In this document: positions 14,892-55,100 of the stretch, piece by piece
How the letters are laid out: every line of letters starts with the position of its first letter
Position numbering within the stretch: the first letter of the stretch is position 1
Virus record (IMG/VR): IMGVR_UViG_3300025687_000026
Span: 1 to 64,000 of that record
Direction: 5' to 3' (one strand)
Source of the DNA: a virus
Length of the DNA stretch: 64,000 nt
Program-made: the position numbers and the translations under genes
The notes under the pieces: generated by a model
What the model saw: the letters and a program-made list of their open reading frames with translations, nothing else
Databases searched by the model: none
Told to the model about the DNA's origin: nothing

Positions 14892-14916
14892 TGCAACAGG
14901 ACAAGGAGACGATTGA

Positions 14917-15255
14917 ATGATTGACACAAGCAAATACGAAGGACACACACCGGGGCCGTGGGAGGCGGAACTGGACGACACTGATGGGCACATGTATGTG
15001 GCTATCGCTGAGGGAGATGAAAAGCGAGAGGTGTTTTTGGACTTACCATGCTGGGTGTGTGAGGAAGACATGTTGGAACTCACGGCTACTGCTGAACTGA
15101 TAGCAGACGCACCACTTCTCCTCGCAGAAGTCAAGCGGTTGCGTGAGCGACTCATTAGAGCATACGATTGGGCTGAGAATGCGGTCAATGGTAATGACTC
15201 AGCGATGATGGACTACATTGAATATGTGTGCGGAGACGAAGGTGAAGAGGAATGA
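14917..15255 (+). CDS. Ead/Ea22-like small protein, paralog 1
   Basis: HTPGPW...LIADAPLLLAEVKRL. Confidence 0.7.
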   Translation: MIDTSKYEGHTPGPWEAELDDTDGHMYVAIAEGDEKREVFLDLPCWVCEEDMLELTATAELIADAPLLLAEVKRLRERLIRAYDWAENAVNGNDSAMMDYIEYVCGDEGEEE

Positions 15256-15536
15256 TTGACACAGACAAATACGAAGGACACACGCTGAACGACTCGTTGA
15301 AAATGGGTGAACCCGACTACGACGACGCGAGGGAAATGTTGTGTGGTGGTGGACTCGTCGGGTGGCTCATCATGAGCGACCATCCGGGTGCTGAAACAAA
15401 CGCACAACTCATCGCAGATGCACCACTTCTCCTCGCAGAAGTCAAGCGGTTGCGTGAAGCGATTGAATACGCCATTGTTCATGCGGAGAACTATGATGTG
15501 ATTAGGGTCTTAGATGAGGTGATGAAAAATGATTGA
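15252..15536 (+). CDS. Ead/Ea22-like small protein, paralog 2
   Basis: MIDTDKYEGHT...NAQLIADAPLLLAEVKRL. Confidence 0.7.
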   Translation: MIDTDKYEGHTLNDSLKMGEPDYDDAREMLCGGGLVGWLIMSDHPGAETNAQLIADAPLLLAEVKRLREAIEYAIVHAENYDVIRVLDEVMKND

Positions 15537-15918
15537 TGAAAGCAAATACGAAGGACGCACAGAAGGTAAATGGGAATACGACAGTGCTACTATTCATGCT
15601 ACTGCTAAAGGTGGTAATGAAATCATAGCGGAATACCCTTGTTGGAATTACAACAAAGACCAACTGATAACCAAAGAGGAAGAGGCTAACCTACGACTCA
15701 TGGCGGACGCACCACTTCTCCTTGAAGAACTGAAGAGACTACAACACAGACTCATGCTTGCAGAATCAGCCCTTGGTGAAATCCGTGCCTACCATGAAAG
15801 TGGTAGCGGCGACCTCGGTGAAATCATCCAACACTACAGGGACAACGAGGGCGTTGAAATGCCGAATGCGTTTGACGAGGATGATGATTCTTCATATACT
15901 GTGGAAGGAGATGACTGA
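15529..15918 (+). CDS. Ead/Ea22-like small protein, paralog 3
   Basis: MIDESKYEGRTEGKW...ANLRLMADAPLLLEELKRL. Confidence 0.7.
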   Translation: MIDESKYEGRTEGKWEYDSATIHATAKGGNEIIAEYPCWNYNKDQLITKEEEANLRLMADAPLLLEELKRLQHRLMLAESALGEIRAYHESGSGDLGEIIQHYRDNEGVEMPNAFDEDDDSSYTVEGDD

Positions 15919-18848: not shown

Positions 18849-19035
18849 TGGAATGATTGGAGATAAGGAAGTTGAGATGCACGAACTTGCTGACTTCACT
18901 TGGGCTATTGACATTGTTCGACACACATCTGAGGACACGAAAGAGTTGCTCGAAGGATGGATAGTCGCAGATGAACAAAAGGCACTTACATTGTATGATG
19001 AAAAAGTAAAGGAATTGCAGGAGATGATTGAATGA
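18841..19035 (+). CDS. Hypothetical protein
   Basis: Overlapping ORF chain. Confidence 0.55.
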   Translation: MNSGMIGDKEVEMHELADFTWAIDIVRHTSEDTKELLEGWIVADEQKALTLYDEKVKELQEMIE

Positions 19036-19535
19036 CTTGGGAAATGAGCGAATTGACATATGAAGTGACAGGAGAACACAGGGGTTGGATGTTGATTAAC
19101 ACCGAAACCAAGCGAACCATCGCTTGCGAATCGGAAGCCGAAGCAAGGGCTATCGCAGACGCACCACTTCTCCTTGAAGAAGTCAAGCGACTACAAAAGG
19201 TGGAGGCTCTCGCTGAGAAGCGGTTGGAGTTTATCCAACGCTTGATGAGCGAGAACGAGAACATGCGCTCTGACCTGTTTTGGCTTACGAACACGATGGA
19301 CGAAGGCCAACAGAAGGACACGGACTACCTCAAGCAACGAGCAGTTCACCCATCCATCGCTGACTTCGTTCAGAGCCTTGCTGAATGGGGCTTCAACCAT
19401 GTCGACCACGGATTCCTGTGGGAAGCCATGGTTTCAGTCATCGAGGCTGGCGAGCGTGGCGACCTTGATGACTTGATTGAGGAACAGGATTCACTACTTA
19501 AAGCGGCATCAAATGATGAGGGGGAGGAAGAATGA
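19032..19535 (+). CDS. Ead/Ea22-like protein, paralog 4
   Basis: AIADAPLLLEEVKRL; DNA at 19155-19189 similar to the 15103 and 15414 blocks. Confidence 0.65.
   Translation: MTWEMSELTYEVTGEHRGWMLINTETKRTIACESEAEARAIADAPLLLEEVKRLQKVEALAEKRLEFIQRLMSENENMRSDLFWLTNTMDEGQQKDTDYLKQRAVHPSIADFVQSLAEWGFNHVDHGFLWEAMVSVIEAGERGDLDDLIEEQDSLLKAASNDEGEEE
19489..19512 (+). promoter_or_regulatory. 24-bp viral element copy 7
   Basis: ATTCACTACTTAAAGCGGCATCAA inside the 3' end of a CDS. Confidence 0.65.
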
Positions 19536-20695: not shown

Positions 20696-20799
20696 GTGAT
20701 ACGAATGCACACAACCTGAAAATCAAAATTGAGACGGACGAATACATCTACTGGGAATACACGGAGGCATAAATCAGTTGAAAACCGATGGACTGAGGA

Positions 20800-20823
20800 C
20801 TTCACTACTTAAAGCAGCATTAA
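20800..20823 (+). promoter_or_regulatory. 24-bp viral element copy 8
   Basis: CTTCACTACTTAAAGCAGCATTAA then GGAGGAAACAAAC-ATG 20853. Confidence 0.72.
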
Positions 20824-20852
20824 GAAAAGAGGACAACAAGGAGGAAACAAAC

Positions 20853-23165
20853 ATGACGGAGATGATGAATATGAACGAACTACTGAGCAAGGAGCGGTTG
20901 GCTGAAGTCAAGTCGCAGAAGGCGGCGGCCATCTTCCGATACGCCAAAGCCTTCGGGACTTTCAGCATCCCACAGGACTGGGCCGTGCCCAACGCTGTGC
21001 CTTTGCTCTTGACTGACACTCCGCTCCATGTTGAGTCGGCTGGCGGAGTCACCGACTTCCCTGCATTCTTGAGAACCTGCCCACTCAACCCACGCCACGG
21101 TGTGCTTGAGTCTGTGCGCTGCGATGACATGGAATCACTTCACTCTGAGTTCAAGCGTCTCCGTGACATCATGATTGACGATGACCCTGAGGGTTGTCTC
21201 ATGCTCATGCCGTTCATCGACGCTGACAACAGTGCTGTGGTTGCTCTCAGCCACGGTGACTTCAACGGTTACGCCGTCTTCGGCCCCGGTCACGACGGTG
21301 TAACTGCTGGTCATGGCTTGCAGTTGGGCTTCCCTGTTCGTTCCGAGAAACACAGCGACAACATCGCACTCAACGCACTGGGTTGTAGCCCAGCAGACCA
21401 CGAACTTGAGTTCGTTTTCACCATGCCTAAGGGTCAGCGAGAGCGTGGTGTCTTCGATTGTAGCAAGGCCAATGGTGAATACATCACTCAGATTCGTGGG
21501 GCTCCTGAGCACACTCCCGTTAGCCCTCCACCTGCTGGTGTTGATACCATCGGCATGGTTCCGCAGGGTGAGGTTGTCATCAACGACTACATCATGATGA
21601 GTGGGCTTGAAGAGGTGGCTTGGCTTGAAGAGAACATCACCAAGGACAACTGCCCTGACGGTTACATGGTGGTCGAGCCGAACGGCTCTCGTCTCTCTCA
21701 CATCTACGCTCACTGCCGTGGCGTTGGTGTTCCCTATGTCATCACTGAGTCCGTGAACAAAGGTGACCGTTGGGTCGAGGCCGCTCCGGGTTGGGTGGTG
21801 CTTGACAACGAAGGCACCTTTGAGCCACAGCCCTACGCTCCCTCCGCATTCAAGGCCGACTTCATCCGTGGCCTCAATGCTGGTAACGACTACTGGGCTA
21901 AGCAACAGGGGTGGTTCTCCACCTTCTTCCATCAGTGGGTCAGTATGCCTTTGAGCAAACCTCAGGACACAGCGTTCCTCGCTGGTGTCTTTTGTGCATG
22001 GTTGCCGAAGTCCATCATGGCCCTCGGCCTCGGTGAGATGCGGCACGCTACTTCACTCAAGAGCAACGCTAACGCTTCACTGTTCGCTACCATCACCGCT
22101 TGCATCGGTGAAGATGTGTGGGTCAAGGTTCACGACAAGCCACACCTTGACAGCAATCGTAGCCACTACTATGCAGCCATCGGGCACATCAAACCAACCT
22201 TCTCACAGATGGCGAAGATGATGCTTTTCCTGTCCAAGCACTACATGAAGGGCTGGTCGGCTGGCTACGGCGGTCCTGCATGGGGCAACTCCATGGTGAC
22301 TGGAGCCACGCTCGCTCAGAGTGTGCAAACATTCCTTGACGCTCCTACTGATGAGAACCTTGACGCTCTCATCCTCAACGCCAACGCCGCTGAGAATGTG
22401 GTGCACAACAACGGCTTCCTGTTCAACAAGTGGCTGAGCAAGCGTGCGCTGGACGCAGGCACTGATGGCTTCAATGTTCGCAGTGACATCAAGAACATGG
22501 CCGCTACCTACACCATGGCGAGTGAGTTGCTCAACCCAGTGGAGGACATGAGTCCGGCTGAGGAACCTCAGCATGACTGGGATGGAGTGCTTGACTTTGT
22601 GTTCAAGAAGACTCCGGCCTACTGGCGCAAGAACCCGATTGCGATTGCCGCCAATGTGCCTGAGGCACTCAAGACTGCGGCCAAGACCATGCCGGTGGCC
22701 TACCGCCACGGCGACAAGGGCAGTCACAACAGCAGTCACAGCAAGGACTTCATCATGTGTGGTGTTGAGACTTGTTCCAAGTGTGCGTCCTTCATGCTGT
22801 GGGCAGCCAATAACAAGAACGAGGTGCCCGAACTGGTCGAGGTGCAACACTTGTTCGAGGAAGGAGCCATCGACATCATGCTTACTCCGACCAAGTTGGA
22901 TGTGTGGTTGGTCGGCACAGTGGTTCAAACCCGTGCTTCCGTCAAGCAACAGGTTGCTCTCATCAAGGCCAAGGAGTTCTTCCCTACCCCTGATGAGTTC
23001 AAGACCATCTACGCCGCACTCAACCCTGACGATTTGGACTACCCCGACATGGTGTATGTCCTGAACAAGTTCATGTCCAAGCAGGACGACAAGGAAGCGT
23101 TCGTCAACGCACTGCTCGGTAAGAAGCCGGACGACAATGACAACAACAAGGAGGCGATTGAATGA
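20853..23165 (+). CDS. Dikinase-like enzyme: degenerate ATP-grasp-like N-terminus, phospho-His swivel (PEP-utiliser mobile) domain, unknown C-terminal domain
   Basis: VVEPNGSRLSHIYAHCRGVGVPYV matches the GxxxSHxxxxxRxxGxPxV swivel signature (His codon 21699); LMPFIDA and ITQIRG resemble PEP-synthase N-domain motifs. Confidence 0.6.
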   Translation: MTEMMNMNELLSKERLAEVKSQKAAAIFRYAKAFGTFSIPQDWAVPNAVPLLLTDTPLHVESAGGVTDFPAFLRTCPLNPRHGVLESVRCDDMESLHSEFKRLRDIMIDDDPEGCLMLMPFIDADNSAVVALSHGDFNGYAVFGPGHDGVTAGHGLQLGFPVRSEKHSDNIALNALGCSPADHELEFVFTMPKGQRERGVFDCSKANGEYITQIRGAPEHTPVSPPPAGVDTIGMVPQGEVVINDYIMMSGLEEVAWLEENITKDNCPDGYMVVEPNGSRLSHIYAHCRGVGVPYVITESVNKGDRWVEAAPGWVVLDNEGTFEPQPYAPSAFKADFIRGLNAGNDYWAKQQGWFSTFFHQWVSMPLSKPQDTAFLAGVFCAWLPKSIMALGLGEMRHATSLKSNANASLFATITACIGEDVWVKVHDKPHLDSNRSHYYAAIGHIKPTFSQMAKMMLFLSKHYMKGWSAGYGGPAWGNSMVTGATLAQSVQTFLDAPTDENLDALILNANAAENVVHNNGFLFNKWLSKRALDAGTDGFNVRSDIKNMAATYTMASELLNPVEDMSPAEEPQHDWDGVLDFVFKKTPAYWRKNPIAIAANVPEALKTAAKTMPVAYRHGDKGSHNSSHSKDFIMCGVETCSKCASFMLWAANNKNEVPELVEVQHLFEEGAIDIMLTPTKLDVWLVGTVVQTRASVKQQVALIKAKEFFPTPDEFKTIYAALNPDDLDYPDMVYVLNKFMSKQDDKEAFVNALLGKKPDDNDNNKEAIE

Positions 23166-24271
23166 GCAACTGGATGAACGAGACGAGCAAGAAGACTGGA
23201 TGTCACACCGGCAACCCCGTGGTGTTTGAAGCGATGGGTGTCAAGGTGCACGCTGGAGGGCACAGCCGTAACGGTGGCTACCACCGCATGTCACCTGCGC
23301 CTGACCTCGCCATGGGTCCTGCTCAGGTCATGGGCAAGCAATCAGCAACCGTAGTCCCCGACGGTTTCACCTGCGCTGAGCATGTGTCGACCCCATACAT
23401 CATCAGCATCGACTGGCCTGACTTCGACATCCCTCAGGACATCCACCGTGAGTGGTGGCTCTCCCTCGTTGATGACATGCGACGACTCGGTATCAAGAGC
23501 GTCTCCACGCAGTGCGTTGGTGGCCATGGTCGCACTGGTGTGCAACTCGCCATCCTTGCTCACATCATGGGTGCAGTGCAGAAGCCCGATGCCGCCTCCC
23601 TCATCAAGTGGGTGCGCTCTACCTACTGCAGTCACGCTGTTGAGACTGCGAGTCAACAACAGTATGTTGCCGAGTGCTGTGACATACCCATGGGGGATTC
23701 ATTGTTCGCATCATTCAAGGCCCGTGGGCCGTCCTTGACCTTCAGTGATGATGCCCCAGTCAGCGTGCCTAAAAGCATCTACTGGGCTGACGAGGATGAA
23801 GACTATGAAGACGGGCTCTCCATACCCAAGGGCTTCAATCTCCTCGGCTGTCACGACTGTGGTGACCTGAGTTGGGTGCATGAAGACGATGCTGATAAAC
23901 CGTGCAAGTGCGGTAGCCCTGAGCGACTGAATACCAACGACATCCTCTACGATACAAATGCAACTTGCCTTGAGTGCGACAGCCCGTGCAACGACTTAGC
24001 CATCCAATCTGATGGCCGTTGCCTATCTTGTCATGCTCAGGAGCAGAAGAAGAAGACACGGGATGGCGATGTGCAGTGCGGTAAGTGCAAGCGTTACTAC
24101 ATCCCTGAGGTCATCAACTGTAAGACATTCCACTGTGTGGGTTGCGAGCGCAAGGCCACACAGAAGCCCAAGGGCAAAGGCAAGAAAGGACTCAAGCCTG
24201 TGCCCAAGGGCGGGCTCAAGGGCAAGGACCTGTATGACTTCGTTGATGGCTTTAAGGAGGACAACTGCTGA
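23162..24271 (+). CDS. Cys-based (PTP/dual-specificity) phosphatase with C-terminal Zn-finger repeats
   Basis: IDWPDF (WPD loop), QCVGGHGRTG (CX5R, Cys codon 23513), AVETASQ (Q loop), multiple CxxC. Confidence 0.85.
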   Translation: MSNWMNETSKKTGCHTGNPVVFEAMGVKVHAGGHSRNGGYHRMSPAPDLAMGPAQVMGKQSATVVPDGFTCAEHVSTPYIISIDWPDFDIPQDIHREWWLSLVDDMRRLGIKSVSTQCVGGHGRTGVQLAILAHIMGAVQKPDAASLIKWVRSTYCSHAVETASQQQYVAECCDIPMGDSLFASFKARGPSLTFSDDAPVSVPKSIYWADEDEDYEDGLSIPKGFNLLGCHDCGDLSWVHEDDADKPCKCGSPERLNTNDILYDTNATCLECDSPCNDLAIQSDGRCLSCHAQEQKKKTRDGDVQCGKCKRYYIPEVINCKTFHCVGCERKATQKPKGKGKKGLKPVPKGGLKGKDLYDFVDGFKEDNC

Positions 24272-24295
24272 CTTCACTACTTAAAGCAGTATCAA
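24272..24295 (+). promoter_or_regulatory. 24-bp viral element copy 9
   Basis: CTTCACTACTTAAAGCAGTATCAA immediately after a stop codon. Confidence 0.72.
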
Positions 24296-45041: not shown

Positions 45042-45646
45042 CTGAAATAATGGCCCTTGACATCGAGACGGGTAACTACTCGTATGAGATTGGAGGTTGG
45101 GACAAGCACGCCTTGTTCGAGCCTACCGTTGTCGCTACATGGGACGGAGCCAACGGCGATGTCTTCAGCAAACAGAGCATTGACATGGCTACCGCCAAGG
45201 TGCACGACCTTCACCCACGCACGCTGGGCGACCACCTGCAAAAGCACATTGACGCTGGAGGCGTCGTGCTCGGTCACAACATCAAGAAGTTCGACCTCCC
45301 AGTGCTCAACGCAGCACTGGACTGCTGGACAGCAGGCGACCTGATGAGCAAGTCTGAGAGTGTCATTGACACCAAACTACTCGTCAGCAAGGCCGCTGGC
45401 GGCAAGGACATCGCTACCAGCCTTGAGATGCTGGCCCGTAACACACTGGACATCGGTAAGAGCATGACAAGTGCCGATGCCCCTGAAGCATGGCGAGCAG
45501 GCCGCTACCTTGAGGTGGCTGAATACTGCTTGAAAGACGCTCAATTGACCTACGACCTCTACCAACACGGTCGTGAGAATGGAGTGGTGAAAAGCCGCTC
45601 GTTGGAGGACGGGTCAATTGTTGAAATTGAGGTGAACTGGGAATGA
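45038..45646 (+). CDS. DEDD/RNase H-like 3'-5' exonuclease (YprB-like)
   Basis: LDIET, GHNIKKFDL, YCLKD. Confidence 0.82.
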   Translation: MTEIMALDIETGNYSYEIGGWDKHALFEPTVVATWDGANGDVFSKQSIDMATAKVHDLHPRTLGDHLQKHIDAGGVVLGHNIKKFDLPVLNAALDCWTAGDLMSKSESVIDTKLLVSKAAGGKDIATSLEMLARNTLDIGKSMTSADAPEAWRAGRYLEVAEYCLKDAQLTYDLYQHGRENGVVKSRSLEDGSIVEIEVNWE

Positions 45647-47118
45647 CTGAAAACAAAAATCACAACGCACAACGACTGAACATCGAGGCTGTCAAGCGCA
45701 TCGTCGGCACTGTCCGCACCACGCTTGGTCCGATGGGTATGGACAAAATGATGGTTGACGGTGGCGGAAATGTCATCGTCACCAACGACGGAGCAACCAT
45801 TCTCCGTGAATTGGATAGCGCCCACCCTGCGGCGAAGATGATTGTCGAGGTGTCCAAGGTCCAAGAAACGAACTGCTACGACGGAACCACCAGCAGCGTG
45901 GTGCTCGCAGGTCAACTGCTAAGCAACGCCGAGGGTCTATTCGACAAGGGCCTTCACCCCAATGTCGTCAACAAGGGTTACACCAAGGCTCAGGCGATGG
46001 TGCTTGAAGAACTTCCGAAACTCTCAGTTGATGGTGAGCGCTCACTGCAAGCCATCGCACGCACAGCCATCACAGGAAAGTCATTGGAAGCATCCGAAGA
46101 CCGCGTTGCTCAACTCTGCGTCGACACCATCCGTGCTGTCGGCGATGCTTCCGATGTCCGTGTGCTCGCTGCGCCCGGTGGCTCGCTCAATGACTCCTAT
46201 CTTTTCGAGGGCGTCGTGGTCAACAAGGACTTCGTTACGGCTGATGGTGACTTCGAGAACGCCGTTACGCCCATCCTGCTGGTCAACAGTGGGCTGGAGG
46301 AGCAGAAGCAAGACGGGAATGTGCAAGTGCAGGTGGACGCTTCGTCCTACAGCACGCTGAAGAATGCAGGGCGTGAGGAACTGCTGGAAGCAGCCAAGCA
46401 TATCGAAGCCTCAGGTGCCCGAGTCGTCTTCGTTCGCGACGGGGTGCACGATACGGTCGTGCAATATCTACACAAGCGTGGTGTCTTTGTCTGCCGCCGT
46501 GTGCCCCCGAGCACCATGAAGCGTCTCTGCAACGAGTTCGGTGTCAACGCTTACCACACGCCCGAGAGCGACATGGAATTGTGCGAGGCTCTCATCGACC
46601 GTCGCCGCTACAACGATGTCGACTACCTCTTCGTCAGCAACAACCTCGCCTCAAGCGAGGCTACACTGGTGCTGTTTGGCGCAACGCAGTCGACGCTGGA
46701 CGAGGTTCAGCGTGGCTTTGACGACGCATTGGGCGTCGTGTCCCTCGTGGCCAACGGCGACAGCGTCTGCTACGGTGGAGGTGCAACTTACCTCGCACTG
46801 GCCTCTTGCTTGAGGAGCCGTGCTGCTGAGGTGGGTGGTCGTGCTCAGATGGCGATTGAAGCCTACGCTGACGCACTGGAGGCTATCCCCGGCACCATCG
46901 CTGAAAACGCTGGTCATGATGCACTGGACACTGTGCTCGCTATGCGCCACGCTGGACTGCCCTTCGGGCCCAATGTGGAGACTGGCGGTATCATGGACAT
47001 GGGTGAGTCTCAGGTCTTTGAACCGATGTCGCTCATCCGCAGCGCTATCACGAGCGCTACTGAGGTCACGACAGCCATCCTACGCATCGACGACATCATT
47101 GGTCGGCGTGGTGAGTAA
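45643..47118 (+). CDS. ths: Group II chaperonin (thermosome-like)
   Basis: TLGPMGMDKM, TNDGATIL, DGTTS, GGGA, ILRIDD. Confidence 0.93.
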   Translation: MTENKNHNAQRLNIEAVKRIVGTVRTTLGPMGMDKMMVDGGGNVIVTNDGATILRELDSAHPAAKMIVEVSKVQETNCYDGTTSSVVLAGQLLSNAEGLFDKGLHPNVVNKGYTKAQAMVLEELPKLSVDGERSLQAIARTAITGKSLEASEDRVAQLCVDTIRAVGDASDVRVLAAPGGSLNDSYLFEGVVVNKDFVTADGDFENAVTPILLVNSGLEEQKQDGNVQVQVDASSYSTLKNAGREELLEAAKHIEASGARVVFVRDGVHDTVVQYLHKRGVFVCRRVPPSTMKRLCNEFGVNAYHTPESDMELCEALIDRRRYNDVDYLFVSNNLASSEATLVLFGATQSTLDEVQRGFDDALGVVSLVANGDSVCYGGGATYLALASCLRSRAAEVGGRAQMAIEAYADALEAIPGTIAENAGHDALDTVLAMRHAGLPFGPNVETGGIMDMGESQVFEPMSLIRSAITSATEVTTAILRIDDIIGRRGE

Positions 47119-47389: not shown

Positions 47390-50300
47390 TCAAGGAATTG
47401 GTCCCGGCGTGTAAACCGGATTGTTTGCCCAAGCCGCTATCCTGTCTAACGCTTCGGCTACTGTTGTTGGCGGAGGGCCTGCCCAATAAGCAGGGTTTGC
47501 CGCATAAACATCCGCCGCCGCATCTGTCGTGTCTGTCGTTGAGTAAGCGGTGTCAGTAAGGTTGCTTGCGGCAACGAGGTCACCGTTGGAGTCAGCGACA
47601 AGAACAGCGTTTGTAGCGTTAGTTTGTCGGATAGTGCCGTCCACATGAAGTTTTTGAGAGGGTGAAATCGTTCCAATACCGATTCTTCCTGTGGAGGCTT
47701 CGTGAGCAATACCATATCCACCGGGGCCACCATCACCCGTTCCGAGGTTTAAGGTTCGGAAATTGATGTTTTTAGCGTTATAATTGGTGACGACTTGCCC
47801 CGTTCCGCCTGTGGTATAACCTTCTAAATACATCATGGTTCTAAGGGTTCCTTCCACATCGGATTGGATAAACATAGCACCCGATTCCGCACCGCCCGTG
47901 GGGTCGTCTAAAACCATTCCAATTCGGCCATAAGGTTCGGGATTTGCACCATCGTTGTTTCCATACCACCATAGACTTCCGAGATAATCGTTTGTGGTTT
48001 GTTTTGCACTTTTAATGATGACATCGGGAGCCGAGTTAGAACCCGGAGTCGGGTCGGTGGATTCAATACGGAGGATTTCGTCTAAAGAGTTTTTGGAAAT
48101 ATGAAGGGCAACCTGCGGGGAGGCCGTTCCTAAACCAAGTCTGTTGTTTGCGTTGTCAAAGTGAAGGTTCGCATTGTCGCTGGCGAAAGCCACACCGTCG
48201 CTGAATTGGATAGCACCAGCCGCACCCGATGGCGTTCCAACCGAGCCAAGCGCGGTGTCAATTCCAGCAAGGTGACCTTCAACCGTTGATGCGGTAGGAG
48301 TGTAGTTTGTTGCACTTGCGGCGGCGGTGATTTCACCATCGTCGTAATCTCCCGATGTAGCAACAACCGCACCCGTCCTTCCGAACACGGATGATACACT
48401 ACCAGCAGAAGCAAGTGCGTTGTCAATTCCAACAAGGTGAGCCTCAACATCAGCGGTAGTGGCGGTGTAGTTGGTCGGAGAGTGTGTGGCGACAGGAACC
48501 TCATCGGCATTTTGGTCTGCCGTTGCGCCTGTTTCAATTCCTGTCAGTTTCGTGCGCTCGGCTGAAGTGATGATGGCTCCGCTTCCAGCGTTGGTCACAT
48601 CGTTAAGTTCAGTCACGCTGTGCGTTGAGAGGTCGGTCACATCCGTTGGCTTGTTGAGGATTTCAGCATCGCCGCTCACGGCATTCCAATCCGCATTGAC
48701 ATTGACTTCTGCGCCCGTAGCGATACCAGCAAGTTTGGTTTGCTCGGCATCCGTAAAGGCGTTGGTGTCGGCGTTGCTCTCGTAAGCCGTCTTGATTTCA
48801 CCCGCCGTTTGGTCTGCTGTTGCGCCCACTTCGATACCGTCGAGTTTGGTAGCCTGAGCGCCTGTCATCAAGCCGGAGTTACCACCGGCTACCACTTCAG
48901 TCAGCGTGGCGTTCGTCCCAGTGCTGCTACTCACAGTTTTTGAAGCAGCATCGTAAGCAAGGTCGGTAGCGGCAGCAGCCGCAGCGCCAGCAGCATCGAC
49001 AAAGCCAGCGTCGTTGTTGAGTTCGCTGATGTTGTCACCCTCGATAATCACCTTCTTCTCAGCGTTAGCGTTATTGGTGAACATCGGTCGGTTGGGTGTT
49101 TCGTTCTTGACCCAATACAACCCCTTGCCAGCAACCGATGTATGACCAGTGGCCGCTGTGTCAGCCTTTTCGTCGACGACTAAGCCGGTAGGGTCAATGA
49201 GCCCAGTCACGGTCAATTTACCGTTAACGGTGAGTTCGTTGGCTGCTGTGTCGTATGAGAGCGTTGAGTCACTGGTGAAGCCACCAGCACCATCGGAGAG
49301 TTGCACAAGACCGCTGGTCCCGCTTGAGGTGGTAGCCACGGTGCTGCTGAAGAGCACACGCTTCCAATTGGTGCCGTCGTAAGCGAACATGAGGGCGTTG
49401 CCTGCAGTGATGGCTTGGTTGAGCCCCGTGCTGTCAAAAGTGACGGTGCTGCCGCTGGGCACTGAGACAAAGACCGTGTGGCCCGGTGGGAAGGTGCCGC
49501 TGGGATTGAGCGTGATACCACTGCTTGCTGTTAGAACGAAGACCCGGTTACCGTCAAAGGTGAAGGTTTGATTCGTGCTTGGACTGGAGACATCAATGTT
49601 GGTAGGACCGAGCAAATGAGTGTGTCGGTTGCTGCCGTCTTTGGCGCTATAGTAGAGCATCGACTCGCCGTCGCTGTTAAACGATTGCCATACGATGCCG
49701 TTGTCGCCAAAAGTAGCGGGTTGACCCGTGTGCACCGTCTGTAGCGCTGTGTGGCTGTTGATGCCCGTGGTTGCCGAGATGGTGCCGTCACGCACTGGGG
49801 AGAAGTAAAGCGGCGAGGGGCGCACGAAGACGCGCTTGTCGTTGTATTCAGACAGAGATTCGATGTTCAAGTCACCCGTGGTCGCTCCACCAGCGTTGAC
49901 AGCACGCACTGTGCCCAGCACGATAGTCTGACGGTTGTCACCAGCCCCGCTACCGGTGGTGAGATAAGAAGCAGCCGTGCCTGAAATGGAGGGGTAGGCT
50001 CCTGCAGCGGTCGTGATGTTGACCGTTTGCGTTATCTTGAGGCCATCAGCCGTAGCAACGACTACGAAAAGACACTCTTCGCCGCTATTGAGTGCAACGA
50101 AGGAGCCAAGTTTCTCAGCGGTCGTGCTGGTCAGCGTGACCGTGATGTCACTGCCGCCGCCGATGGCGTAGAGGATGCCGTCAAGAATGACATCGCACGC
50201 TTTGACCACGAACTGGTTGGCGCCCGCTCCCGCACTGATAGCGCCGGGAAGGTCGGGTGGGTCGTTGCGGTCGTTATCGTCGTAAGCCGTATCGTGCGGC

Positions 50301-50434
50301 AACAAGATACCGTTGCCGTGCACGCCTTCGTAGAGATTTGTCAAGGACGGTGAGAGGATGTGACTTCCGTCAGTCAGTCCATCGTTAGCGCCGTCTGTGT
50401 GTCCCGAAAGGGGGTTATCTGTAGTCATCGTCAT
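47390..50434 (-). CDS. Tail fibre / receptor-binding-like virion protein
   Basis: Three TKLxGIxxGA repeats, two NYTxTxxxVExHLxGIDxAL repeats, VSSVFGRTGAV, two R[LI]G[LI]GT..P...LH motifs; Thr/Gly/Ser-rich. Confidence 0.75.
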   Translation of the reverse strand: MTMTTDNPLSGHTDGANDGLTDGSHILSPSLTNLYEGVHGNGILLPHDTAYDDNDRNDPPDLPGAISAGAGANQFVVKACDVILDGILYAIGGGSDITVTLTSTTAEKLGSFVALNSGEECLFVVVATADGLKITQTVNITTAAGAYPSISGTAASYLTTGSGAGDNRQTIVLGTVRAVNAGGATTGDLNIESLSEYNDKRVFVRPSPLYFSPVRDGTISATTGINSHTALQTVHTGQPATFGDNGIVWQSFNSDGESMLYYSAKDGSNRHTHLLGPTNIDVSSPSTNQTFTFDGNRVFVLTASSGITLNPSGTFPPGHTVFVSVPSGSTVTFDSTGLNQAITAGNALMFAYDGTNWKRVLFSSTVATTSSGTSGLVQLSDGAGGFTSDSTLSYDTAANELTVNGKLTVTGLIDPTGLVVDEKADTAATGHTSVAGKGLYWVKNETPNRPMFTNNANAEKKVIIEGDNISELNNDAGFVDAAGAAAAAATDLAYDAASKTVSSSTGTNATLTEVVAGGNSGLMTGAQATKLDGIEVGATADQTAGEIKTAYESNADTNAFTDAEQTKLAGIATGAEVNVNADWNAVSGDAEILNKPTDVTDLSTHSVTELNDVTNAGSGAIITSAERTKLTGIETGATADQNADEVPVATHSPTNYTATTADVEAHLVGIDNALASAGSVSSVFGRTGAVVATSGDYDDGEITAAASATNYTPTASTVEGHLAGIDTALGSVGTPSGAAGAIQFSDGVAFASDNANLHFDNANNRLGLGTASPQVALHISKNSLDEILRIESTDPTPGSNSAPDVIIKSAKQTTNDYLGSLWWYGNNDGANPEPYGRIGMVLDDPTGGAESGAMFIQSDVEGTLRTMMYLEGYTTGGTGQVVTNYNAKNINFRTLNLGTGDGGPGGYGIAHEASTGRIGIGTISPSQKLHVDGTIRQTNATNAVLVADSNGDLVAASNLTDTAYSTTDTTDAAADVYAANPAYWAGPPPTTVAEALDRIAAWANNPVYTPGPIP

Positions 50435-50435
50435 T

Positions 50436-50780
50436 CTATTTCACCTCAATCAACAATTGAATGCGTAGTTCGTTTTGCGTCGTCTTAAGCACAGGAAGAA
50501 TCGTGTGCCGAGCGACTGGCGTGAAAGAGTTTGAACCACGGAACTGGACATAGACTTCTTTCAAGGAGTCCGTGAACTCTTCCGATGCTGGTATAAAACC
50601 TTCAACGAGGATGGTGTTGTCGTCGACGATGCGCACCGTCGGATTGAGCGTGATGGCTGGACGACCAGCGGCCCCATCAGAACTCGTAGATGGGGTTCCA
50701 TCGAAACCTATAATCATCTCGTTGATGTTGCTCGCTATCGTGTCGAGCAGCGCCCGTTTGATGTGGTCGCTTACCGGCAT
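50436..50780 (-). CDS. Putative tail structural protein
   Basis: Position in structural operon; beta-rich. Confidence 0.55.
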   Translation of the reverse strand: MPVSDHIKRALLDTIASNINEMIIGFDGTPSTSSDGAAGRPAITLNPTVRIVDDNTILVEGFIPASEEFTDSLKEVYVQFRGSNSFTPVARHTILPVLKTTQNELRIQLLIEVK

Positions 50781-52189
50781 TATGCGTCACCTCTGTATGT
50801 GATTGGAGTGGACTTGCTACCACCGAGGGTTTCTTCGTCACTACTTCCACCGAGCACGCCCCTGTTCATGGCTTTACCGATGATAAACCCTGAGAGGCCG
50901 TGATTCTGAATTGTAATGATGGGAACCGTGACAATTTCGATGTCACCAAACAACGAGAAGTTTTGTTCAATGACCTGCTCGACGACTTCAGGCCGACGGC
51001 CGGTGTTCTGAGCACCCTCAAGAATGCCTTGCAGCACGCCTTCAATGCCGCTGTCAACGGTGAGGAAAACAAGGTCAGCGGTGTTCTCCGAAAGGTTGTG
51101 ACGCACTTCGGTGAGGATGCGGTTGCGTCCTTCATATTCGATGATTTTACCCGGTCGCAAGTCCCATGAAGCGGTGTGACCTGAACTGGTCTTGTTACCG
51201 GCGAGAAGGTTGTTGGCCTTCAACACGCTGCGTGCAACACGACGGGCCGCCTCGTTGTTTCGCACCGTGAAGTCTTCAATGACCTGCGGGTCCTGTTGCA
51301 CATCGCCACCACGACCACTCTGTCGCTCAGCATCGCTGACTTCGGCGTAGGCGGTATCGTTGACCGAGAGGGGTGTGCCTTGCACGATAACACGGTTGCT
51401 GGTGTTGTCGACTGGGTTGGTTCCAGCAGGCCCGGTCCTGTTGTTAGCGTCGACGAAACGACCGCTTTCACCGAAGTTGAACGGCACATAGAGCAGGCTA
51501 CCAAAGCGCTCAAAGTAGATGATGCGATTGTCATGACGCCCAAGGAAACGCAACGCCGTGACGAGGTTGACTCCGTAGAAGTCGGTAGCGATAAAGCGGG
51601 TGCTGTGACGGCGACGGTCACCGCTGGAGTTGCTGGGAGTGAGCGGAAGTGCGATGTTGACCGAGGTGAGCGTATCAGCGATGTCACGACCAAGACGCAT
51701 GGCCATGTCGGTCGTGCGGAAACCGACATCAATTGGCTGCGCTGCGTAACCTGCCGTGCTGTTGAAGCCCAGTTCACTGAGCGTTTTGCCTTTCATGTTC
51801 CGCACTGCAAAAACAGAACCCTTGTTTCCAGTGGAGTGACTACCGAGTGACAGGCGCTCAGTCTGCTGGTCTATAGAATACAACATCCTCGGACTATTTG
51901 AAGCAGCATCGCTACGCATGTAGAAGATGCGATTTTGTGAAGTGTGACCCGGCGTTGATGTGTGAGTCAAAACGACACTGTCTTGACGCTCGTCGATGGT
52001 GTAAGAGTGCGTTGATGCGACAGCGTAGGTTGAGGTCTTGCGTTGCTTGACGGTGACCTTAGCCTGCGTTGTGCCCTGCATAGCAATTTCACCAAGGTGC
52101 ACTGCGTTGTCGACGAAGACTGGCTTGCGCACTTGTTTCATCACGACATCGGTGTCACCGGTCGTGCGTTGCTGTGCGAGGAAGGTCAC
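50780..52189 (-). CDS. Putative tail hub/baseplate-like protein
   Basis: NRVIVQG...A...A..L...DLRPG.I pattern typical of hub proteins; position. Confidence 0.55.
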   Translation of the reverse strand: MTFLAQQRTTGDTDVVMKQVRKPVFVDNAVHLGEIAMQGTTQAKVTVKQRKTSTYAVASTHSYTIDERQDSVVLTHTSTPGHTSQNRIFYMRSDAASNSPRMLYSIDQQTERLSLGSHSTGNKGSVFAVRNMKGKTLSELGFNSTAGYAAQPIDVGFRTTDMAMRLGRDIADTLTSVNIALPLTPSNSSGDRRRHSTRFIATDFYGVNLVTALRFLGRHDNRIIYFERFGSLLYVPFNFGESGRFVDANNRTGPAGTNPVDNTSNRVIVQGTPLSVNDTAYAEVSDAERQSGRGGDVQQDPQVIEDFTVRNNEAARRVARSVLKANNLLAGNKTSSGHTASWDLRPGKIIEYEGRNRILTEVRHNLSENTADLVFLTVDSGIEGVLQGILEGAQNTGRRPEVVEQVIEQNFSLFGDIEIVTVPIITIQNHGLSGFIIGKAMNRGVLGGSSDEETLGGSKSTPITYRGDA

Positions 52190-55100
52190 GGAGCATCACC
52201 ACTGTGGTCGGATGTGTTGTAAGTCACATCGGCCTTGTGTCCCTTGCTATGCAGAGACTGACTGAAGCGGGGCTTGACTGAGTAGTCCTTACCGCTACCT
52301 GTGCGACGAGGAGCGTCGCTGCGATAGTGCTGCAGCGTGTTCTCGCTGATGAGCAAACGAGTCACTGTGGACTTGAGTGTGCCGGTGTCGAATGTAGGCA
52401 TCGCCGAACCGGGGAGTTTCGGACCCTTCGACACCGGCACAGTGTCGCTACTGCTTTCCATCAAATAAACGGGCTGGTAAGGAGCGTTTCCGTCAGGCAC
52501 CGTTGCACGCATGTAAGAGCCCGCTGAGGCGTTGGTGGACTCGTAGGTGAAGAGCCCATACTTGCCGCCAGCAGTGGCGGTGTAGAAGGTGCTTCCGTAT
52601 TGAGGTGTGCCGCTGGCGACAGCGCGAACAGGGCGGAAGACTTCGATGTGTTGGTTGTCCAGCAGACGCACCGGACGCAACATGAATCGCACTGTCGTGT
52701 CCGTGAGGTTATGAGGTGTCGTCGTGCTTGTCGTGGTCTGATATGGATTGCTGGTTGTGCCCGAACCGCTGCGACCCCAACCGGTGTCATCGAATGGGTT
52801 GACGAACGAGCGGGACTCAAGGATGTAGGTGCCGCCCATGGGCTTGATGTTACCAGTGTGGCTAAAACGCATGACCCCGCCTTGAGGTTGAGCAGCGAAG
52901 GAGAGGCTCGTTAGGTCATAGTCTTCCAGCGTCTGCGAACCTGACTGCAATCCACCCTGCAGGACGATACGCTGCCCAACACCACGGTCAGTGTGCAGGC
53001 TATGAGCCTCACTGTTGATGGCGACCATGTCGGCATTGATGCCGGTGGAGAAGGACTCAAGCGTGTCAGCGTCAATACCGATACGGGGCGAGGAGCGAGA
53101 GATTGGCTCTTTGTGCACCGAGGTGCCGGTGATGCTCTCGACACGGTCGCTGACTGCAGCCTCGGGCTTAAGCAAACCGTCCTCAGCAATTTCAAGGCGA
53201 CCACTGATACCACGCTTGACTTCGTCGGGCTGCAGCACATCATCACGAGGTCGCAGCAACCCTTGACCGAAGGTTGGCTCAGCCGTGTGATGCGAGAGAA
53301 CGACGCCCGAACCTTCGTAGACGGCGCTTAATTCGGTTAGAACATCCTCGTTGAACTGCGTTGGATAACGCACACCACGCCCACCACCCATGTCGCCGAC
53401 ACGCATGGCGTTGGTTGGGGCAAAGACATCGACAAGGACGAAGGCGTTGTTGTTGTTTGTGTCATTGAGTCGACCACCAAAGCGTGGAATGACTTCAGTT
53501 GGGCTGCTCAACACTTTGCCCGTAAGAGGGTCAACGACACCTTTGAAGTTGACAATCGGCTTACCTCCGTTCCACAACCGAGCGTAAGGTGAACGACCGT
53601 AAGTGCGGTCGTATTCGTATGCGTCGCCTGCGTCCCAAGCAGGACGGATGCCGAAGCCACGCACCGGTGCTTTGCGGACATCTTCACCGCGAGTGTTGCC
53701 CCACCAGTCGACAAGATAGTAGCCCGCCGCACCTTCAATGGTGCCGATACCAAGACCTTGGCTATCACCCCACCAGTCACGAGGAGCGTCAGCATTGTTG
53801 CGAATGATGCGAACAGGACAGCCAAACGAGCGAGTCATGCGGCGACCGTCGCTGTAGCGCACCTGCCATTCAGGTTTGTCGGGCCCGAGCATACCACTAA
53901 AGTTGGTCTGCCTTTCCATAACGCCAACATAGGTCGTTGGTAGCGTTTTTGGGGTCAAACCAGCACCACCAGCGTAATTCCAATCTTGCGATTCGTATTC
54001 GACCAGTGGACCGGGCTTGTAACCGAGGGTCAGGTTGCTGCTACTATAGGAGGATTCAGTGAAGGCACGCATGCCGTAGTGTCCCCATTGAGGGCGGTTC
54101 CACGGTTGACGCAGACCGAATCGGTAGCCGAATGGATAAGAGCGGGTGCTCACAAGACTCGATGCGATGCCGATGCCGTCGCTCGCAGTATAAGAAGCAG
54201 CATCGCCAGTGTCTTCCCAATGCTTACCGCCGCCTGCTTCGTAGAGGGCTGGTAGATTCCACGCAGCAGACCAAGCAGCATAGCCGTCAAGACGACTGAC
54301 GAGTGGTCCGCCACGGCTACCGCTTGGCCAATAGTGACTGAGCATGACAGTGTTGCTGCCTTGCGCTTGATAACCCGACATAATGTGAATGTTAGCAGCC
54401 GTCTCTGCTGTTCCGTCAGCGCCAAAGTAGACCTTGGACCCAACGGCCGGTGTAAAGAGGATGTCTGTAGTCAGAACAATGTTCACACCGCTTATTCCAC
54501 CGCCTGCAATTTTACCCAACACCTTACCTTCGACAAAAATGTAATCGCCTGCTGAAGCCCCGTCGCTACTGACATCAGCATTCATCGTGATGGTGGAAGG
54601 TGAACCGGCCGCTGATTGGAAAGTGCCTGAGAACTGACTGGGTGGCTCGGGCGTCTTGAAATCGAGGTGGAACGGACCAAGGCTGGCGGCGTAGTTGACG
54701 CCGTGATAATGCACCGTCTCAAAGTGTTCAGGCATGCTGTTGTAGGCCGCTTTGTCTACAGCCCGGTCATCAGTAGCGTCGCCCCATGTTCGGCTGCTGT
54801 CGGAGTAGAAAGTATGGGGTCGACCGAGGTTTGGATGCCATGCGCAAACGAATGCGTCAGGAGTGTAGAGACTGTTCGTATCTCGTGTCCCACCACGCAA
54901 CTGGTCGAGATTAAGCGACAAAACACCTTGCGACTTGGTCAATAGCGAAGTCGAAACTTCACGACTGTAAGGTCGACTTAAGCGGAGCACGGTGCCCGCA
55001 CTCGGCAAACTCAAAGCAGTCGTGATGAAACGATAGGGTTGGTTCATTGTTCCGCTACTGTAAGTCAAGCCTGTGCGTTTGGTGTAAGACAGCGTCTGAG

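What the first reader, a model, noticed from the sequence alone, without database searches (positions are those of the whole stretch)
20853..24271. Coupled dikinase-like enzyme and CX5R phosphatase: a viral write/erase phosphorylation module with unknown substrate
SEEN: two genes overlap by ATGA and are bounded exactly by element copies 8 and 9. Gene 1 has a phospho-His swivel motif (GSRLSHIYAHCRGVGVPYV), a degenerate PEP-synthase-like N-terminus and no recognisable PEP-binding barrel. Instead it has a helical region with YGGPAW (22266) and HNNG..FNKW (22404). Gene 2 has intact WPD, CVGGHGR and Q-loop motifs plus Zn fingers. KNOWN: ATP-grasp + His-swivel + a swapped acceptor domain is the architecture of rifampin phosphotransferase and glucan water dikinase, and the latter is counteracted by the dual-specificity phosphatase SEX4. 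INFERENCE: the pair reversibly phosphorylates a non-pyruvate acceptor such as a nucleotide or immune signal, nucleic-acid end, glycan, lipid or protein. It may serve counter-defence or host takeover.
Basis: partly seen in the sequence, partly recalled or inferred. Interest (0 to 1): 0.8.

Follow-up and report, generated by a model that had tools for sequence, protein, structure and literature searches.

The report
Viral dikinase-like enzyme with phosphatase partner
A probable marine archaeal virus carries a two-gene unit that occurs in many tailed viruses: an ATP-driven enzyme that passes phosphate on a swinging histidine to a helical domain of unknown fold, plus a cysteine phosphatase; its target is unknown.

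Summary
Gene 1 (20853-23165, 770 aa) and gene 2 (23162-24271, 369 aa) overlap by ATGA. They sit exactly between copies 8 and 9 of a 13-copy promoter-like element.

A confident AlphaFold model shows that gene 1 residues 3-328 form an ATP-grasp plus phospho-His swivel module. It resembles rifampin phosphotransferase (Z 15.9) and PPDK (Z 14.8). Residues 330-620 are all-helical, with no match in PDB, BFVD or Pfam. Gene 2 is a PTP-superfamily phosphatase with invariant WPD Asp, CX5R and Q-loop residues.

In 75 of 76 assessable sequence clusters from viral contigs, a PTP gene lies next to the gene 1 homologue. It usually overlaps by 4 nt.

New here: the helical domain is homologous (hhalign 97%, E 4e-11) to stand-alone orphan proteins (PHROG 20946) of cultured Vibrio, Stenotrophomonas, Rhizobium and Rhodobacter phages. 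In the two cultured-phage loci and six viral contigs examined, the orphan lies between or beside PTP genes and downstream of a truncated "PPDK" that papers read as a glycolysis gene. This is a fusion/fission pattern.

The substrate is unknown. A nucleotide or nucleic-acid hydroxyl is my best guess. The writer/eraser and counter-defence readings are untested. The scan had already found this pair on other DNA.

The parts
20801..20814 (+). Promoter-like element, copy 8 (TTCACTACTTAAAG; the extended similarity runs 20783-20846). It lies 39 nt before the gene 1 ATG.
   Evidence: 13 exact copies against 0.18 expected; extended repeat families; sequence read.
20853..23165 (+). Gene 1: dikinase-like phosphotransferase, 770 aa (P0001).
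   Evidence: ORF and translation; 59 homologue clusters; 1172 representatives by profile search; AF2 model with pLDDT 88.6 and pTM 0.82.
20880..21542 (+). ATP-grasp nucleotide-binding domain (about residues 10-230). Invariant residues: K23, R74, R81, S87, H147, G149, T151, Q213, R215. E186 is nearly invariant.
   Evidence: VIA-align: RPH ATP domain 5hv6 Z 11.7, PEPS 2ols Z 12.4, synapsin and Ddl Z 12. Foldseek hits to PPDK, RPH and ATP-grasp enzymes. Invariant columns.
21546..21812 (+). Phospho-His swivel domain (about residues 232-320). The candidate catalytic His283 codon is at 21699-21701.
   Evidence: The 5hv3 (Z 15.9) and 1kbl (Z 14.8) alignments run through the His domain. H283 is invariant in two alignments. 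The motif aligns with the TSH motif of canonical phage PPDK-like proteins.
21840..22712 (+). All-helical domain of unknown fold, the presumed acceptor domain (about residues 330-620). Signatures: GEMRH at 22032-22046, YGGPAW at 22266-22283, HNNGFLFNK at 22404-22430.
   Evidence: Domain model pLDDT 81.6. No PDB match: Foldseek best E 0.38, VIA wide best Z 6.4. No BFVD match. No Pfam match. Homologous to stand-alone PHROG 20946 proteins.
22707..22784 (+). Putative zinc knuckle (H619, C636, C641, C644). The variable acidic tail then runs to 23162.
   Evidence: These four residues are invariant or nearly invariant in the magrovirus-clade alignment. They are absent from many shorter distant members. 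Metal binding is inferred only.
23162..24271 (+). Gene 2: PTP-superfamily cysteine phosphatase with zinc ribbons and a Lys-rich tail, 369 aa (P0002).
   Evidence: ORF; PHROG 17568 E 1e-15; family profile against PTPRA 6uzt E 1.3e-7; 94 homologue clusters.
23414..23659 (+). Catalytic core of gene 2: WPD at 23414-23422, C118-x5-R124 at 23513-23533, Q165-Q166 at 23654-23659.
   Evidence: P86, D87, C118, G120-G126, E161, Q165 and Q166 are invariant in 36 sequences. They align to the WPD loop, P-loop and Q-loop of receptor PTPs.
23834..24268 (+). Cys-rich zinc-ribbon region (about residues 225-330) and Lys-rich tail (residues 331-369, pI 9.7).
   Evidence: Conserved CxxC pairs; weak zinc-ribbon hits; composition. 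This region is absent from the minimal ~190-aa partner phosphatases.
24273..24286 (+). Promoter-like element, copy 9. It starts 2 nt after the gene 2 stop codon and heads the next gene (ATG at 24295).

Best explanation
The two genes form one promoter-bounded, translationally coupled unit of a probable marine archaeal tailed virus. Gene 1 is a compact, highly diverged member of the PPDK / PEP synthase / rifampin phosphotransferase class. Its proposed mechanism has three steps. The ATP-grasp domain binds ATP. His283 on the swivel domain takes the beta-phosphate, with AMP and Pi released. The swivel domain then delivers the phosphate to an acceptor held in the C-terminal helical domain, in a polar site built from E395, R397, H398, R436, the YGG..W loop, H518, N519 and K526. 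This helical domain replaces the PEP/pyruvate barrel and is the specificity module. In other phages it is a separate protein that works with a truncated PPDK-like donor. Gene 2 is an active hydrolytic cysteine phosphatase. It acts on the same molecule, removing either the new phosphate or a neighbouring one. I therefore read the pair as a two-step pathway rather than a simple switch. Shown here: the folds, the invariant residues, the gene linkage and the domain fusion/fission. Inferred: the chemistry, the role of the helical domain as acceptor site, and the order of steps. My best guess for the acceptor, at about 35%, is a hydroxyl on a nucleotide or on DNA/RNA.
For: Fold: RPH 5hv3 Z 15.9 over 265 residues spanning both the ATP-grasp and His domains; PPDK 1kbl Z 14.8. 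Foldseek top hits are PPDK, RPH and PEPS. The protein-language-model neighbours carry PEP-utilizers and PPDK_N. The PPDK-type motifs appear in the same order in both consensus sequences: SQK / LRTCP / HDGVTAG / ELEFV / TQIR / GSxLSH here, against GGKG / VRSGA / GEDVVAG / DIEFT / LQTR / GGxTSH in canonical phage PPDK-like proteins. H283 and the C-domain residues E395, R397, R436, G473-G474, W477, H518, N519 and K526 are invariant even in members with 20-35% identity. The motifs are collinear in about 125 of 143 distant representatives. The C-domain is homologous to stand-alone orphans: hhalign 97.2%, E 4e-11. In all 8 split-form loci the orphans sit beside PTP genes and 0-1.7 kb downstream of a PPDK_N + PEP-utilizers protein without a barrel. 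A PTP gene is adjacent in 75 of 76 assessable clusters. The one exception lacks the C-domain. The WPD Asp, CX5R and both Q-loop Gln of gene 2 are invariant. From my knowledge of classical PTPs, these residues mark a water-activating hydrolase. Context for a nucleic-acid guess: neighbours in distant loci are PD-(D/E)XK, AAA_25, AAA_24, ERF and Prim-Pol genes. A conserved large gene, annotated DNA polymerase I in the two cultured phages, lies a few genes downstream of the cassette in all 8 split loci. DLP3 DNA resisted 15 of 15 restriction enzymes, and only 4 of 36 enzymes cut DLP5 DNA (PMC7326821, PMC5834331).
Against: Gene 1 has no sequence-level match to PF01326 or PF00391. hhalign against canonical phage PPDK-like proteins aligns only the His motif, at E 0.18. 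Membership of the class therefore rests on a predicted structure. No biochemical data exist. The helical domain could itself be the phospho-acceptor or a regulator rather than a substrate pocket. I could not read model coordinates, so I did not check whether the invariant residues cluster or face His283. The nucleic-acid guess is weak. This genome has no ThyA, ThyX or TGT homologue, so the known hydroxymethyl-pyrimidine and deazaguanine routes are not supported. DLP3 and DLP5 carry other possible DNA-modification genes. Domain pI values are uninformative. No third conserved gene points to a pathway.
Confidence: 0.7

Rival explanations
1. A true writer/eraser switch on a protein. The dikinase phosphorylates a host or viral protein, for example on Tyr, and the PTP reverses it to time or limit the signal.
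For: Gene 2 aligns best with classical pTyr phosphatases, including the WPD loop and Q-loop. The pairing is near-obligate. The unit shares its promoter-like element with an ArdC-like anti-restriction gene.
Against: As far as I know, no PPDK-class dikinase phosphorylates proteins. Known acceptors are small molecules and glucans. Making an antagonist in fixed ratio from the same mRNA would give a futile cycle. The pTyr-recognition half of classical PTPs is missing, since the domain is about 185 aa rather than about 280 aa. No conserved third gene exists that could be a viral target.
Confidence: 0.12
2. An end-healing pair for broken nucleic acids, working like T4 polynucleotide kinase-phosphatase. 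The dikinase phosphorylates 5'-OH ends and the PTP removes 3' or 2',3'-cyclic phosphates, countering host nucleases.
For: A kinase and a phosphatase that cooperate would explain coupled expression. Partner phosphatases match the PTP-SAK family of predicted RNA-repair proteins. The gene 2 tail is Lys-rich with zinc ribbons. The module sits among replication and recombination genes.
Against: No ligase is conserved next to the pair. The minimal ~190-aa partners lack zinc ribbons and a basic tail. The folds differ from all known end-healing enzymes.
Confidence: 0.1
3. A phosphorelay. Phosphate moves from His283 to a residue of the helical domain, or to Cys118 of the PTP-fold protein as in the PTS EI-to-EIIB chain, and the proteins are carriers rather than kinase and hydrolase.
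For: The helical domain has an invariant His (H518) and can be a separate protein flanked by two PTP-fold proteins. As I recall, a PTS EIIB domain carries phospho-Cys on a phosphatase-like fold.
Against: The invariant WPD Asp and Q-loop Gln pair are features of hydrolysis, not transfer. No terminal acceptor or transporter is linked.
Confidence: 0.06
4. An auxiliary metabolic gene: a real pyruvate phosphate dikinase or PEP synthase that boosts host glycolysis or gluconeogenesis. This is how the cultured-phage relatives are described.
For: GenBank annotations and papers on vibriophages and DLP3/DLP5 use this reading (PMC12038007, PMC9229204).
Against: No PEP/pyruvate TIM barrel is detected by Pfam. 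In gene 1 the region after the swivel domain is all-helical. The cultured-phage proteins stop about 200 aa after the swivel domain. The constant PTP and orphan partners have no place in glycolysis.
Confidence: 0.02

Closest known systems
Rifampin phosphotransferase (RPH-Lm; PDB 5hv3, 5hv2, 5hv1, 5fbs)
   Same: It is the best structural match: Z 15.9, rmsd 3.6 over 265 residues, covering both the ATP-grasp and the His swivel domain. Like RPH, gene 1 carries a helical non-barrel specificity domain and so belongs with the small-molecule dikinases.
   Different: The domain order differs. In the alignment the RPH His domain lies at the C-terminus of the chain, whereas here it is central. The helical domain shows no detectable similarity to the RPH rifampin-binding domain: there is no PF27448 hit and RPH is not among the top VIA-wide matches. 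The only hint is a language-model lead at 0.87. RPH has no phosphatase partner that I know of.
Pyruvate phosphate dikinase and PEP synthase (PDB 1kbl, 1dik, 2ols)
   Same: The domain order is ATP-grasp then central swivel His (Z 14.8 over model residues 10-328 against chain residues 6-517). The ATP-grasp and TSH-type motifs appear in the same order.
   Different: There is no PEP/pyruvate TIM barrel. There is no Pfam-level sequence similarity. The ATP-grasp and swivel domains are much smaller, about 320 aa against about 510 aa.
Truncated 'PPDK' + PHROG 20946 orphan + PTP cassette of cultured phages (Stenotrophomonas DLP3 gp135/gp140/gp139+gp141; Vibrio phage PG28)
   Same: It has the same three functional parts in the same order. 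The orphan is homologous to the gene 1 helical domain, sharing the ExRH, YGGxxW and HNNGxxFNK motifs. The phosphatases belong to the gene 2 family.
   Different: The donor module there is a canonical PPDK_N + PEP-utilizers protein on a separate polypeptide. There are usually two phosphatases and small intervening genes. The hosts are bacteria. The ATP-grasp/His modules of the two forms are not alignable by sequence.
Two-component small-molecule dikinase HpeHI (PMC12167813)
   Same: It is a precedent for a dikinase split into separate polypeptides with a swivelling His, which supports the fused and split forms seen here being one system.
   Different: HpeHI is split between the ATP-grasp domain and the swivel + substrate domains. 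The phage split lies between the swivel domain and the acceptor domain. HpeH is RPH-like, the substrates are phenolic compounds, and the abstract mentions no phosphatase partner.
Glucan water dikinase with the SEX4/laforin glucan phosphatases
   Same: A dikinase and a CX5R phosphatase act on one substrate.
   Different: No carbohydrate-binding module was found in either protein by Pfam. The plant genes are not an operon. Gene 2 has a Q-loop like classical PTPs rather than dual-specificity phosphatases.

Membership tests
PPDK / PEPS / RPH dikinase class (structural superfamily) | N-terminal ATP-grasp nucleotide-binding fold | tested here: met
   VIA-align Z 11.7-12.4 to the RPH, PPDK and PEPS ATP domains and to Ddl and synapsin. 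Foldseek probability 1.00 to ATP-grasp enzymes. The model has pLDDT 88.6.
PPDK / PEPS / RPH dikinase class (structural superfamily) | Swivel domain carrying a conserved catalytic His in a G-x-x-S/T-H motif followed by a small helix and a G-x-P-x-V element | tested here: met
   H283 is invariant in 43 and in 39 sequences. Full-length RPH and PPDK alignments extend through the His domain. The local motif alignment to the canonical TSH motif is weak (E 0.06-0.18).
PPDK / PEPS / RPH dikinase class (sequence families PF01326 and PF00391) | Significant match to the Pfam PPDK_N and PEP-utilizers models | tested here: not met
   Gene 1 has no such hit at E<=1. The cultured-phage split-form donors do match, at 1e-42 and 1e-26. 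Gene 1 is therefore a structural relative only.
PPDK / PEP synthase proper | C-terminal PEP/pyruvate-binding TIM barrel (PF02896) | tested here: not met
   No Pfam hit. The region after the swivel domain is predicted all-helical.
PPDK / PEPS / RPH dikinase class | ATP converted to AMP + Pi, with beta-phosphate transfer through phospho-His | not testable with these tools
   This needs enzyme assays.
Rifampin phosphotransferase family | RPH-type helical substrate-binding domain (PF27448 Rph_4th) | tested here: inconclusive
   No Pfam hit at E<=5 in 15 C-domain sequences. No RPH chain appears among the VIA-wide top rows. Language-model neighbours carry PF27448 at score 0.87, which is only a lead.
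PTP superfamily (gene 2) | C-x5-R P-loop with the catalytic Cys and Arg | tested here: met
   C118 and G120-G126 are invariant in 36 sequences and align to the PTP P-loop.
PTP superfamily (gene 2) | General-acid Asp (WPD loop) and Q-loop glutamines of classical PTPs | tested here: met
   P86, D87, Q165 and Q166 are invariant. They align with the WPD and Q-loop of PTPRA and PTPN3.
PTP superfamily (gene 2) | Score above the Pfam PF00102 gathering threshold | tested here: inconclusive
   P0002 itself scores 18.8 bits against a cut-off of 20.9. Partner phosphatases from four of five other loci tested score 27-32 bits; the fifth (L049) scores 20.6, just under the cut-off, but matches PTP-SAK at 39.5 bits. 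The family profile hits PTPRA at E 1.3e-7.
Classical pTyr-specific PTPs | N-terminal half of the ~280-aa domain, with the pTyr-recognition loop | tested here: not met
   Only the WPD-to-Q-loop half aligns. The domain is about 185 aa and has a different N-terminus, with invariant C14 and H15.
Glucan water dikinase / SEX4-type pair | Carbohydrate-binding module on the kinase or the phosphatase | tested here: inconclusive
   Pfam found none in either protein. No dedicated structural search for such a module was made.

The most novel reading that the evidence does not exclude
The module is a previously unknown nucleic-acid or nucleotide modification pathway shared by archaeal and bacterial tailed viruses. 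The dikinase would place a phosphate on a base, sugar or end of viral DNA or of a nucleotide precursor, using the new helical domain as the nucleic-acid-handling catalytic site. The PTP-fold enzyme would process that intermediate. This might account for the unexplained restriction resistance of phages such as DLP3 and DLP5.
Probability: 0.2. Interest if true: 0.9.

Novelty: new variant of a known kind. Interest (0 to 1): 0.72.

Why it matters
The catalytic chassis is known, but two things are not: the acceptor domain has no recognisable relative, and the near-obligate phosphatase partner has no precedent in this enzyme class. The family is large, with about 1,170 clusters at 50% identity. Where its source could be checked, it was viral. 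It spans probable viruses of marine archaea and cultured phages of Vibrio, Stenotrophomonas, Rhizobium and Rhodobacter. Papers currently treat the cultured-phage versions as a glycolysis gene and use them as evidence that these viruses reprogramme carbon metabolism. The domain content contradicts that reading. Linking the archaeal-virus fusion protein to the split cassette makes the question testable in culturable systems. Those phages can be knocked out, and their DNA and metabolites can be analysed. Finding the substrate would define a new viral phosphorylation chemistry.

Tried and rejected
- Sequence searches of gene 1 found nothing useful in Pfam, PHROGs, PDB or the cultured-phage collection.
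- Five long homologues of 1093-1412 aa, plus two of 1095 and 957 aa whose N-terminal extensions exceed 400 aa, have no Pfam domain, so their extra N-terminal parts gave no clue.
- hhalign of the gene 1 family against canonical phage PPDK-like proteins aligned only the His motif.
- The C-domain fold searches gave noise only. Foldseek PDB best E was 0.38. VIA-align against 48,161 chains gave a best Z of 6.4, to GPCR-type helix bundles. BFVD best E was 0.14.
- A membrane location for the C-domain was rejected. It has one moderately hydrophobic helix, and the stand-alone forms have none.
- The known hydroxymethyl-pyrimidine and deazaguanine DNA-modification routes are not supported in this genome, which has no ThyA, ThyX or TGT.
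- BLAST clustering of neighbours found no third conserved partner gene outside closely related genomes. A Pfam tally of 117 neighbours showed only a general replication/recombination setting.
- Domain pI values were uninformative.
The scan with A1 found one contig in a bacterial MAG. That scan detects only close relatives, so absence from cells is not shown.
- Model coordinates are not readable in the script box, so residue clustering and the distance between His283 and the C-domain were not measured.


Full report
**Observation.** The window is the first 64 kb of a 107,060-bp IMG/VR virus record rated 100% complete. Gene 1 runs 20853-23165 and gene 2 runs 23162-24271, both on the + strand. 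They overlap by ATGA, and each has a GGAGG about 8 nt before its ATG. The 14-mer TTCACTACTTAAAG occurs 13 times exactly, always on the + strand, between 9.4 and 32.3 kb. Chance predicts 0.18 copies. Copies 8 (20801) and 9 (24273) bracket the pair. The longer TTG-initiated frame from 20778 is not the gene: the element lies inside it, and homologues begin at the ATG.

**Genome.** The window encodes these recognisable proteins:
- a family B DNA polymerase
- a clamp-loader-like AAA+ protein
- a PD-(D/E)XK nuclease
- a Cpn60/TCP-1 chaperonin
- an SNF2 helicase
- an ArdC-like anti-restriction protein
- a Pyr_excise-like protein

The polymerase's best cultured relatives are haloarchaeal tailed viruses, at 24% identity. 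Relatives of both genes lie on marine contigs of about 95-107 kb. This matches the published description of magroviruses, including the SNF2 helicase and chaperonin of group A (PMC5434244). An archaeal host is an inference. The repeated element, with its TTAAAG core about 39 nt before each ATG, is most simply a promoter, so the two genes form one transcription unit.

**Gene 1, N-terminal half.** Sequence searches are blank. An AlphaFold model built on 43 homologues is confident: pLDDT 88.6, pTM 0.82.
- Foldseek ranks PPDK, rifampin phosphotransferase (RPH) and PEP synthase first, followed by ATP-grasp enzymes.
- VIA-align gives Z 15.9 to RPH 5hv3, with 265 residues aligned over model residues 3-319. 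It gives Z 14.8 to PPDK 1kbl, model residues 10-328 against chain residues 6-517. Both alignments cover the ATP-grasp and the His domain.
- The family consensus shows SQK, LRTCP, HDGVTAG, ELEFV, TQIR and GSxLSH. Canonical phage PPDK-like proteins show GGKG, VRSGA, GEDVVAG, DIEFT, LQTR and GGxTSH in the same order.
- K23, R74, T151, Q213, R215 and H283 are invariant.
- Profile-profile comparison by sequence aligns only the His motif, weakly. Assignment to this class is therefore structural.

**Gene 1, C-terminal half.** Residues 330-620 are all-helical. A putative H-C-C-C zinc knuckle and a variable tail follow. A separate domain model (pLDDT 81.6) has no match in PDB by Foldseek or by an exhaustive VIA-align run, and none in BFVD. 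Pfam finds nothing at permissive thresholds. Language-model neighbours carrying the RPH "fourth domain" are only a lead. E395, R397, R436, G473-G474, W477, H518, N519, G521 and K526 are invariant, even in members with 20-35% identity. The motif order is kept in most of 143 distant representatives.

**Link to cultured phages.** Gene 2 has weak tblastn hits in 12 phage-collection records, 8 of them from cultured Stenotrophomonas, Vibrio, Rhodobacter and Rhizobium phages and 4 from uncultured metagenome assemblies. In DLP3 and PG28 these hits lie in a cassette:
- a "pyruvate phosphate dikinase"
- one to three small genes
- a phosphatase
- a 326-339-aa hypothetical protein
- a second phosphatase
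- DNA polymerase I a few genes further on

The "dikinase" has PPDK_N and PEP-utilizers domains but no barrel. One "thymidylate synthase" in DLP3 is in fact a phosphatase. The hypothetical protein belongs to PHROG 20946, of unknown function. It is homologous to the gene 1 helical domain: hhalign gives 95% (E 2.5e-8) for one sequence and 97.2% (E 4e-11) profile to profile. The ExRH, YGGxxW and HNNGxxFNK motifs all align. The orphan occurs in 40 records of cultured phages. That is the same host spectrum reported for viral "PPDK" (PMC12038007). Six further viral contigs have the same split layout. One of them shows donor, orphan and phosphatase in direct succession. This fusion/fission pattern ties the three parts into one system. 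Split dikinases are known, for example HpeHI (PMC12167813).

**Gene 2.** The first ~190 residues are a PTP-superfamily domain. P86, D87, C118, G120-G126, E161, Q165 and Q166 are invariant. Partner phosphatases from four of five other loci tested pass the Pfam PF00102 threshold. The Q-loop glutamines and the WPD Asp argue for a hydrolase; this rests on my knowledge of classical PTPs. The pTyr-recognition half of classical PTPs is missing. Zinc ribbons and a Lys-rich tail follow, but the minimal ~190-aa partners lack them.

**Linkage.** Two scans of viral contigs gave 110 loci, falling into 80 clusters at 90% identity. Seventy-six clusters can be assessed. In 75 a phosphatase gene is adjacent on the same strand. 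In 74 it lies downstream, most often with a 4-nt overlap, and in one it lies upstream. The single exception is a 513-aa protein that matches only the N-terminal part and lacks the helical domain. The phosphatase therefore tracks the helical domain.

**Distribution.** A profile search finds 1,172 representatives at 50% identity, 670 of them below E 1e-30. A scan of 185,579 species genomes for close relatives found one 30-kb contig in a bacterial MAG, probably a mis-binned viral contig.

**Function.** Shown here:
- the folds
- the invariant residues
- the gene linkage
- the domain fusion/fission

Inferred:
- ATP beta-phosphate passes to His283 and then to an acceptor in the helical domain
- the phosphatase acts on the same molecule

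Coupled translation fits a pathway better than an on/off switch. The acceptor is unknown. Several points favour a nucleotide or nucleic acid. The setting is a replication/recombination block. A conserved large gene, annotated DNA polymerase I in the two cultured phages, lies a few genes downstream of the cassette in all eight split loci. DLP3 and DLP5 DNA is heavily restriction-resistant (PMC7326821, PMC5834331). Against it, this genome lacks ThyA, ThyX and TGT, and no third partner gene is conserved. A metabolic PPDK reading is rejected.

**Novelty and earlier notes.** I found no paper describing this module. Magrovirus papers do not mention it. Earlier agents of this scan reported the fused pair and, separately, the split cassette on other genomes. 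As far as those short notes show, the homology that joins the two is first documented here.

Noticed in passing
window 9443-32334, + strand: There are 13 exact copies of TTCACTACTTAAAG, each about 35-40 nt before an ATG with a GGAGG. They head a one-directional block that includes the SNF2 helicase, the ArdC-like gene, the Pyr_excise-like gene and many orphans. This looks like a virus-specific promoter with a TATA-like TTAAAG core, defining one regulon.
   Followed up: partly
window 14905-15918 and 19032-19535: Tandem small paralogous ORFs share repeated starts (14905, 15240, 15517) and a repeated segment (15095, 15406, 15695, 19147). This is a small gene family of unknown function in the same promoter block.
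   Followed up: no
window 52186-63885 (-), 47390-50434 (-), 50780-52189 (-): A 3,899-aa ORF and the neighbouring 1,014-aa and 469-aa ORFs have no Pfam match at all. They are presumably virion or tail proteins of unknown type.
   Followed up: partly
window 45643-47118 (+): A full-length Cpn60/TCP-1 chaperonin (E 1.6e-122) lies at the end of the replication block, as described for magroviruses.
   Followed up: no
L037:6439-7215 (DLP3 gp141); PHROG 17568: PHROG 17568 and the GenBank records of DLP3 and DLP5 label this family 'thymidylate synthase'. Its members match only DSP/PTP phosphatase models. This is an annotation error that propagates.
   Followed up: yes
L094:4256-5797, L095:6866-8407, L096:1-1404: A 513-aa viral protein matches only the ATP-grasp part of the family. 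It has no helical-domain signature, no Pfam domain and no adjacent phosphatase. It may be a different acceptor variant.
   Followed up: partly
L112 (NZQM01000111.1, MAG labelled Parvibaculum sp.): A 30-kb contig in a bacterial MAG encodes a gene 1 homologue at 57% identity. It is probably a magrovirus-like contig binned into the wrong genome.
   Followed up: no
L038:2716-3189 (Vibrio phage PG28): A CsrA-like protein is encoded between the truncated dikinase and the first phosphatase of the split cassette. DLP3 has a 'transcriptional repressor' at the equivalent place.
   Followed up: no
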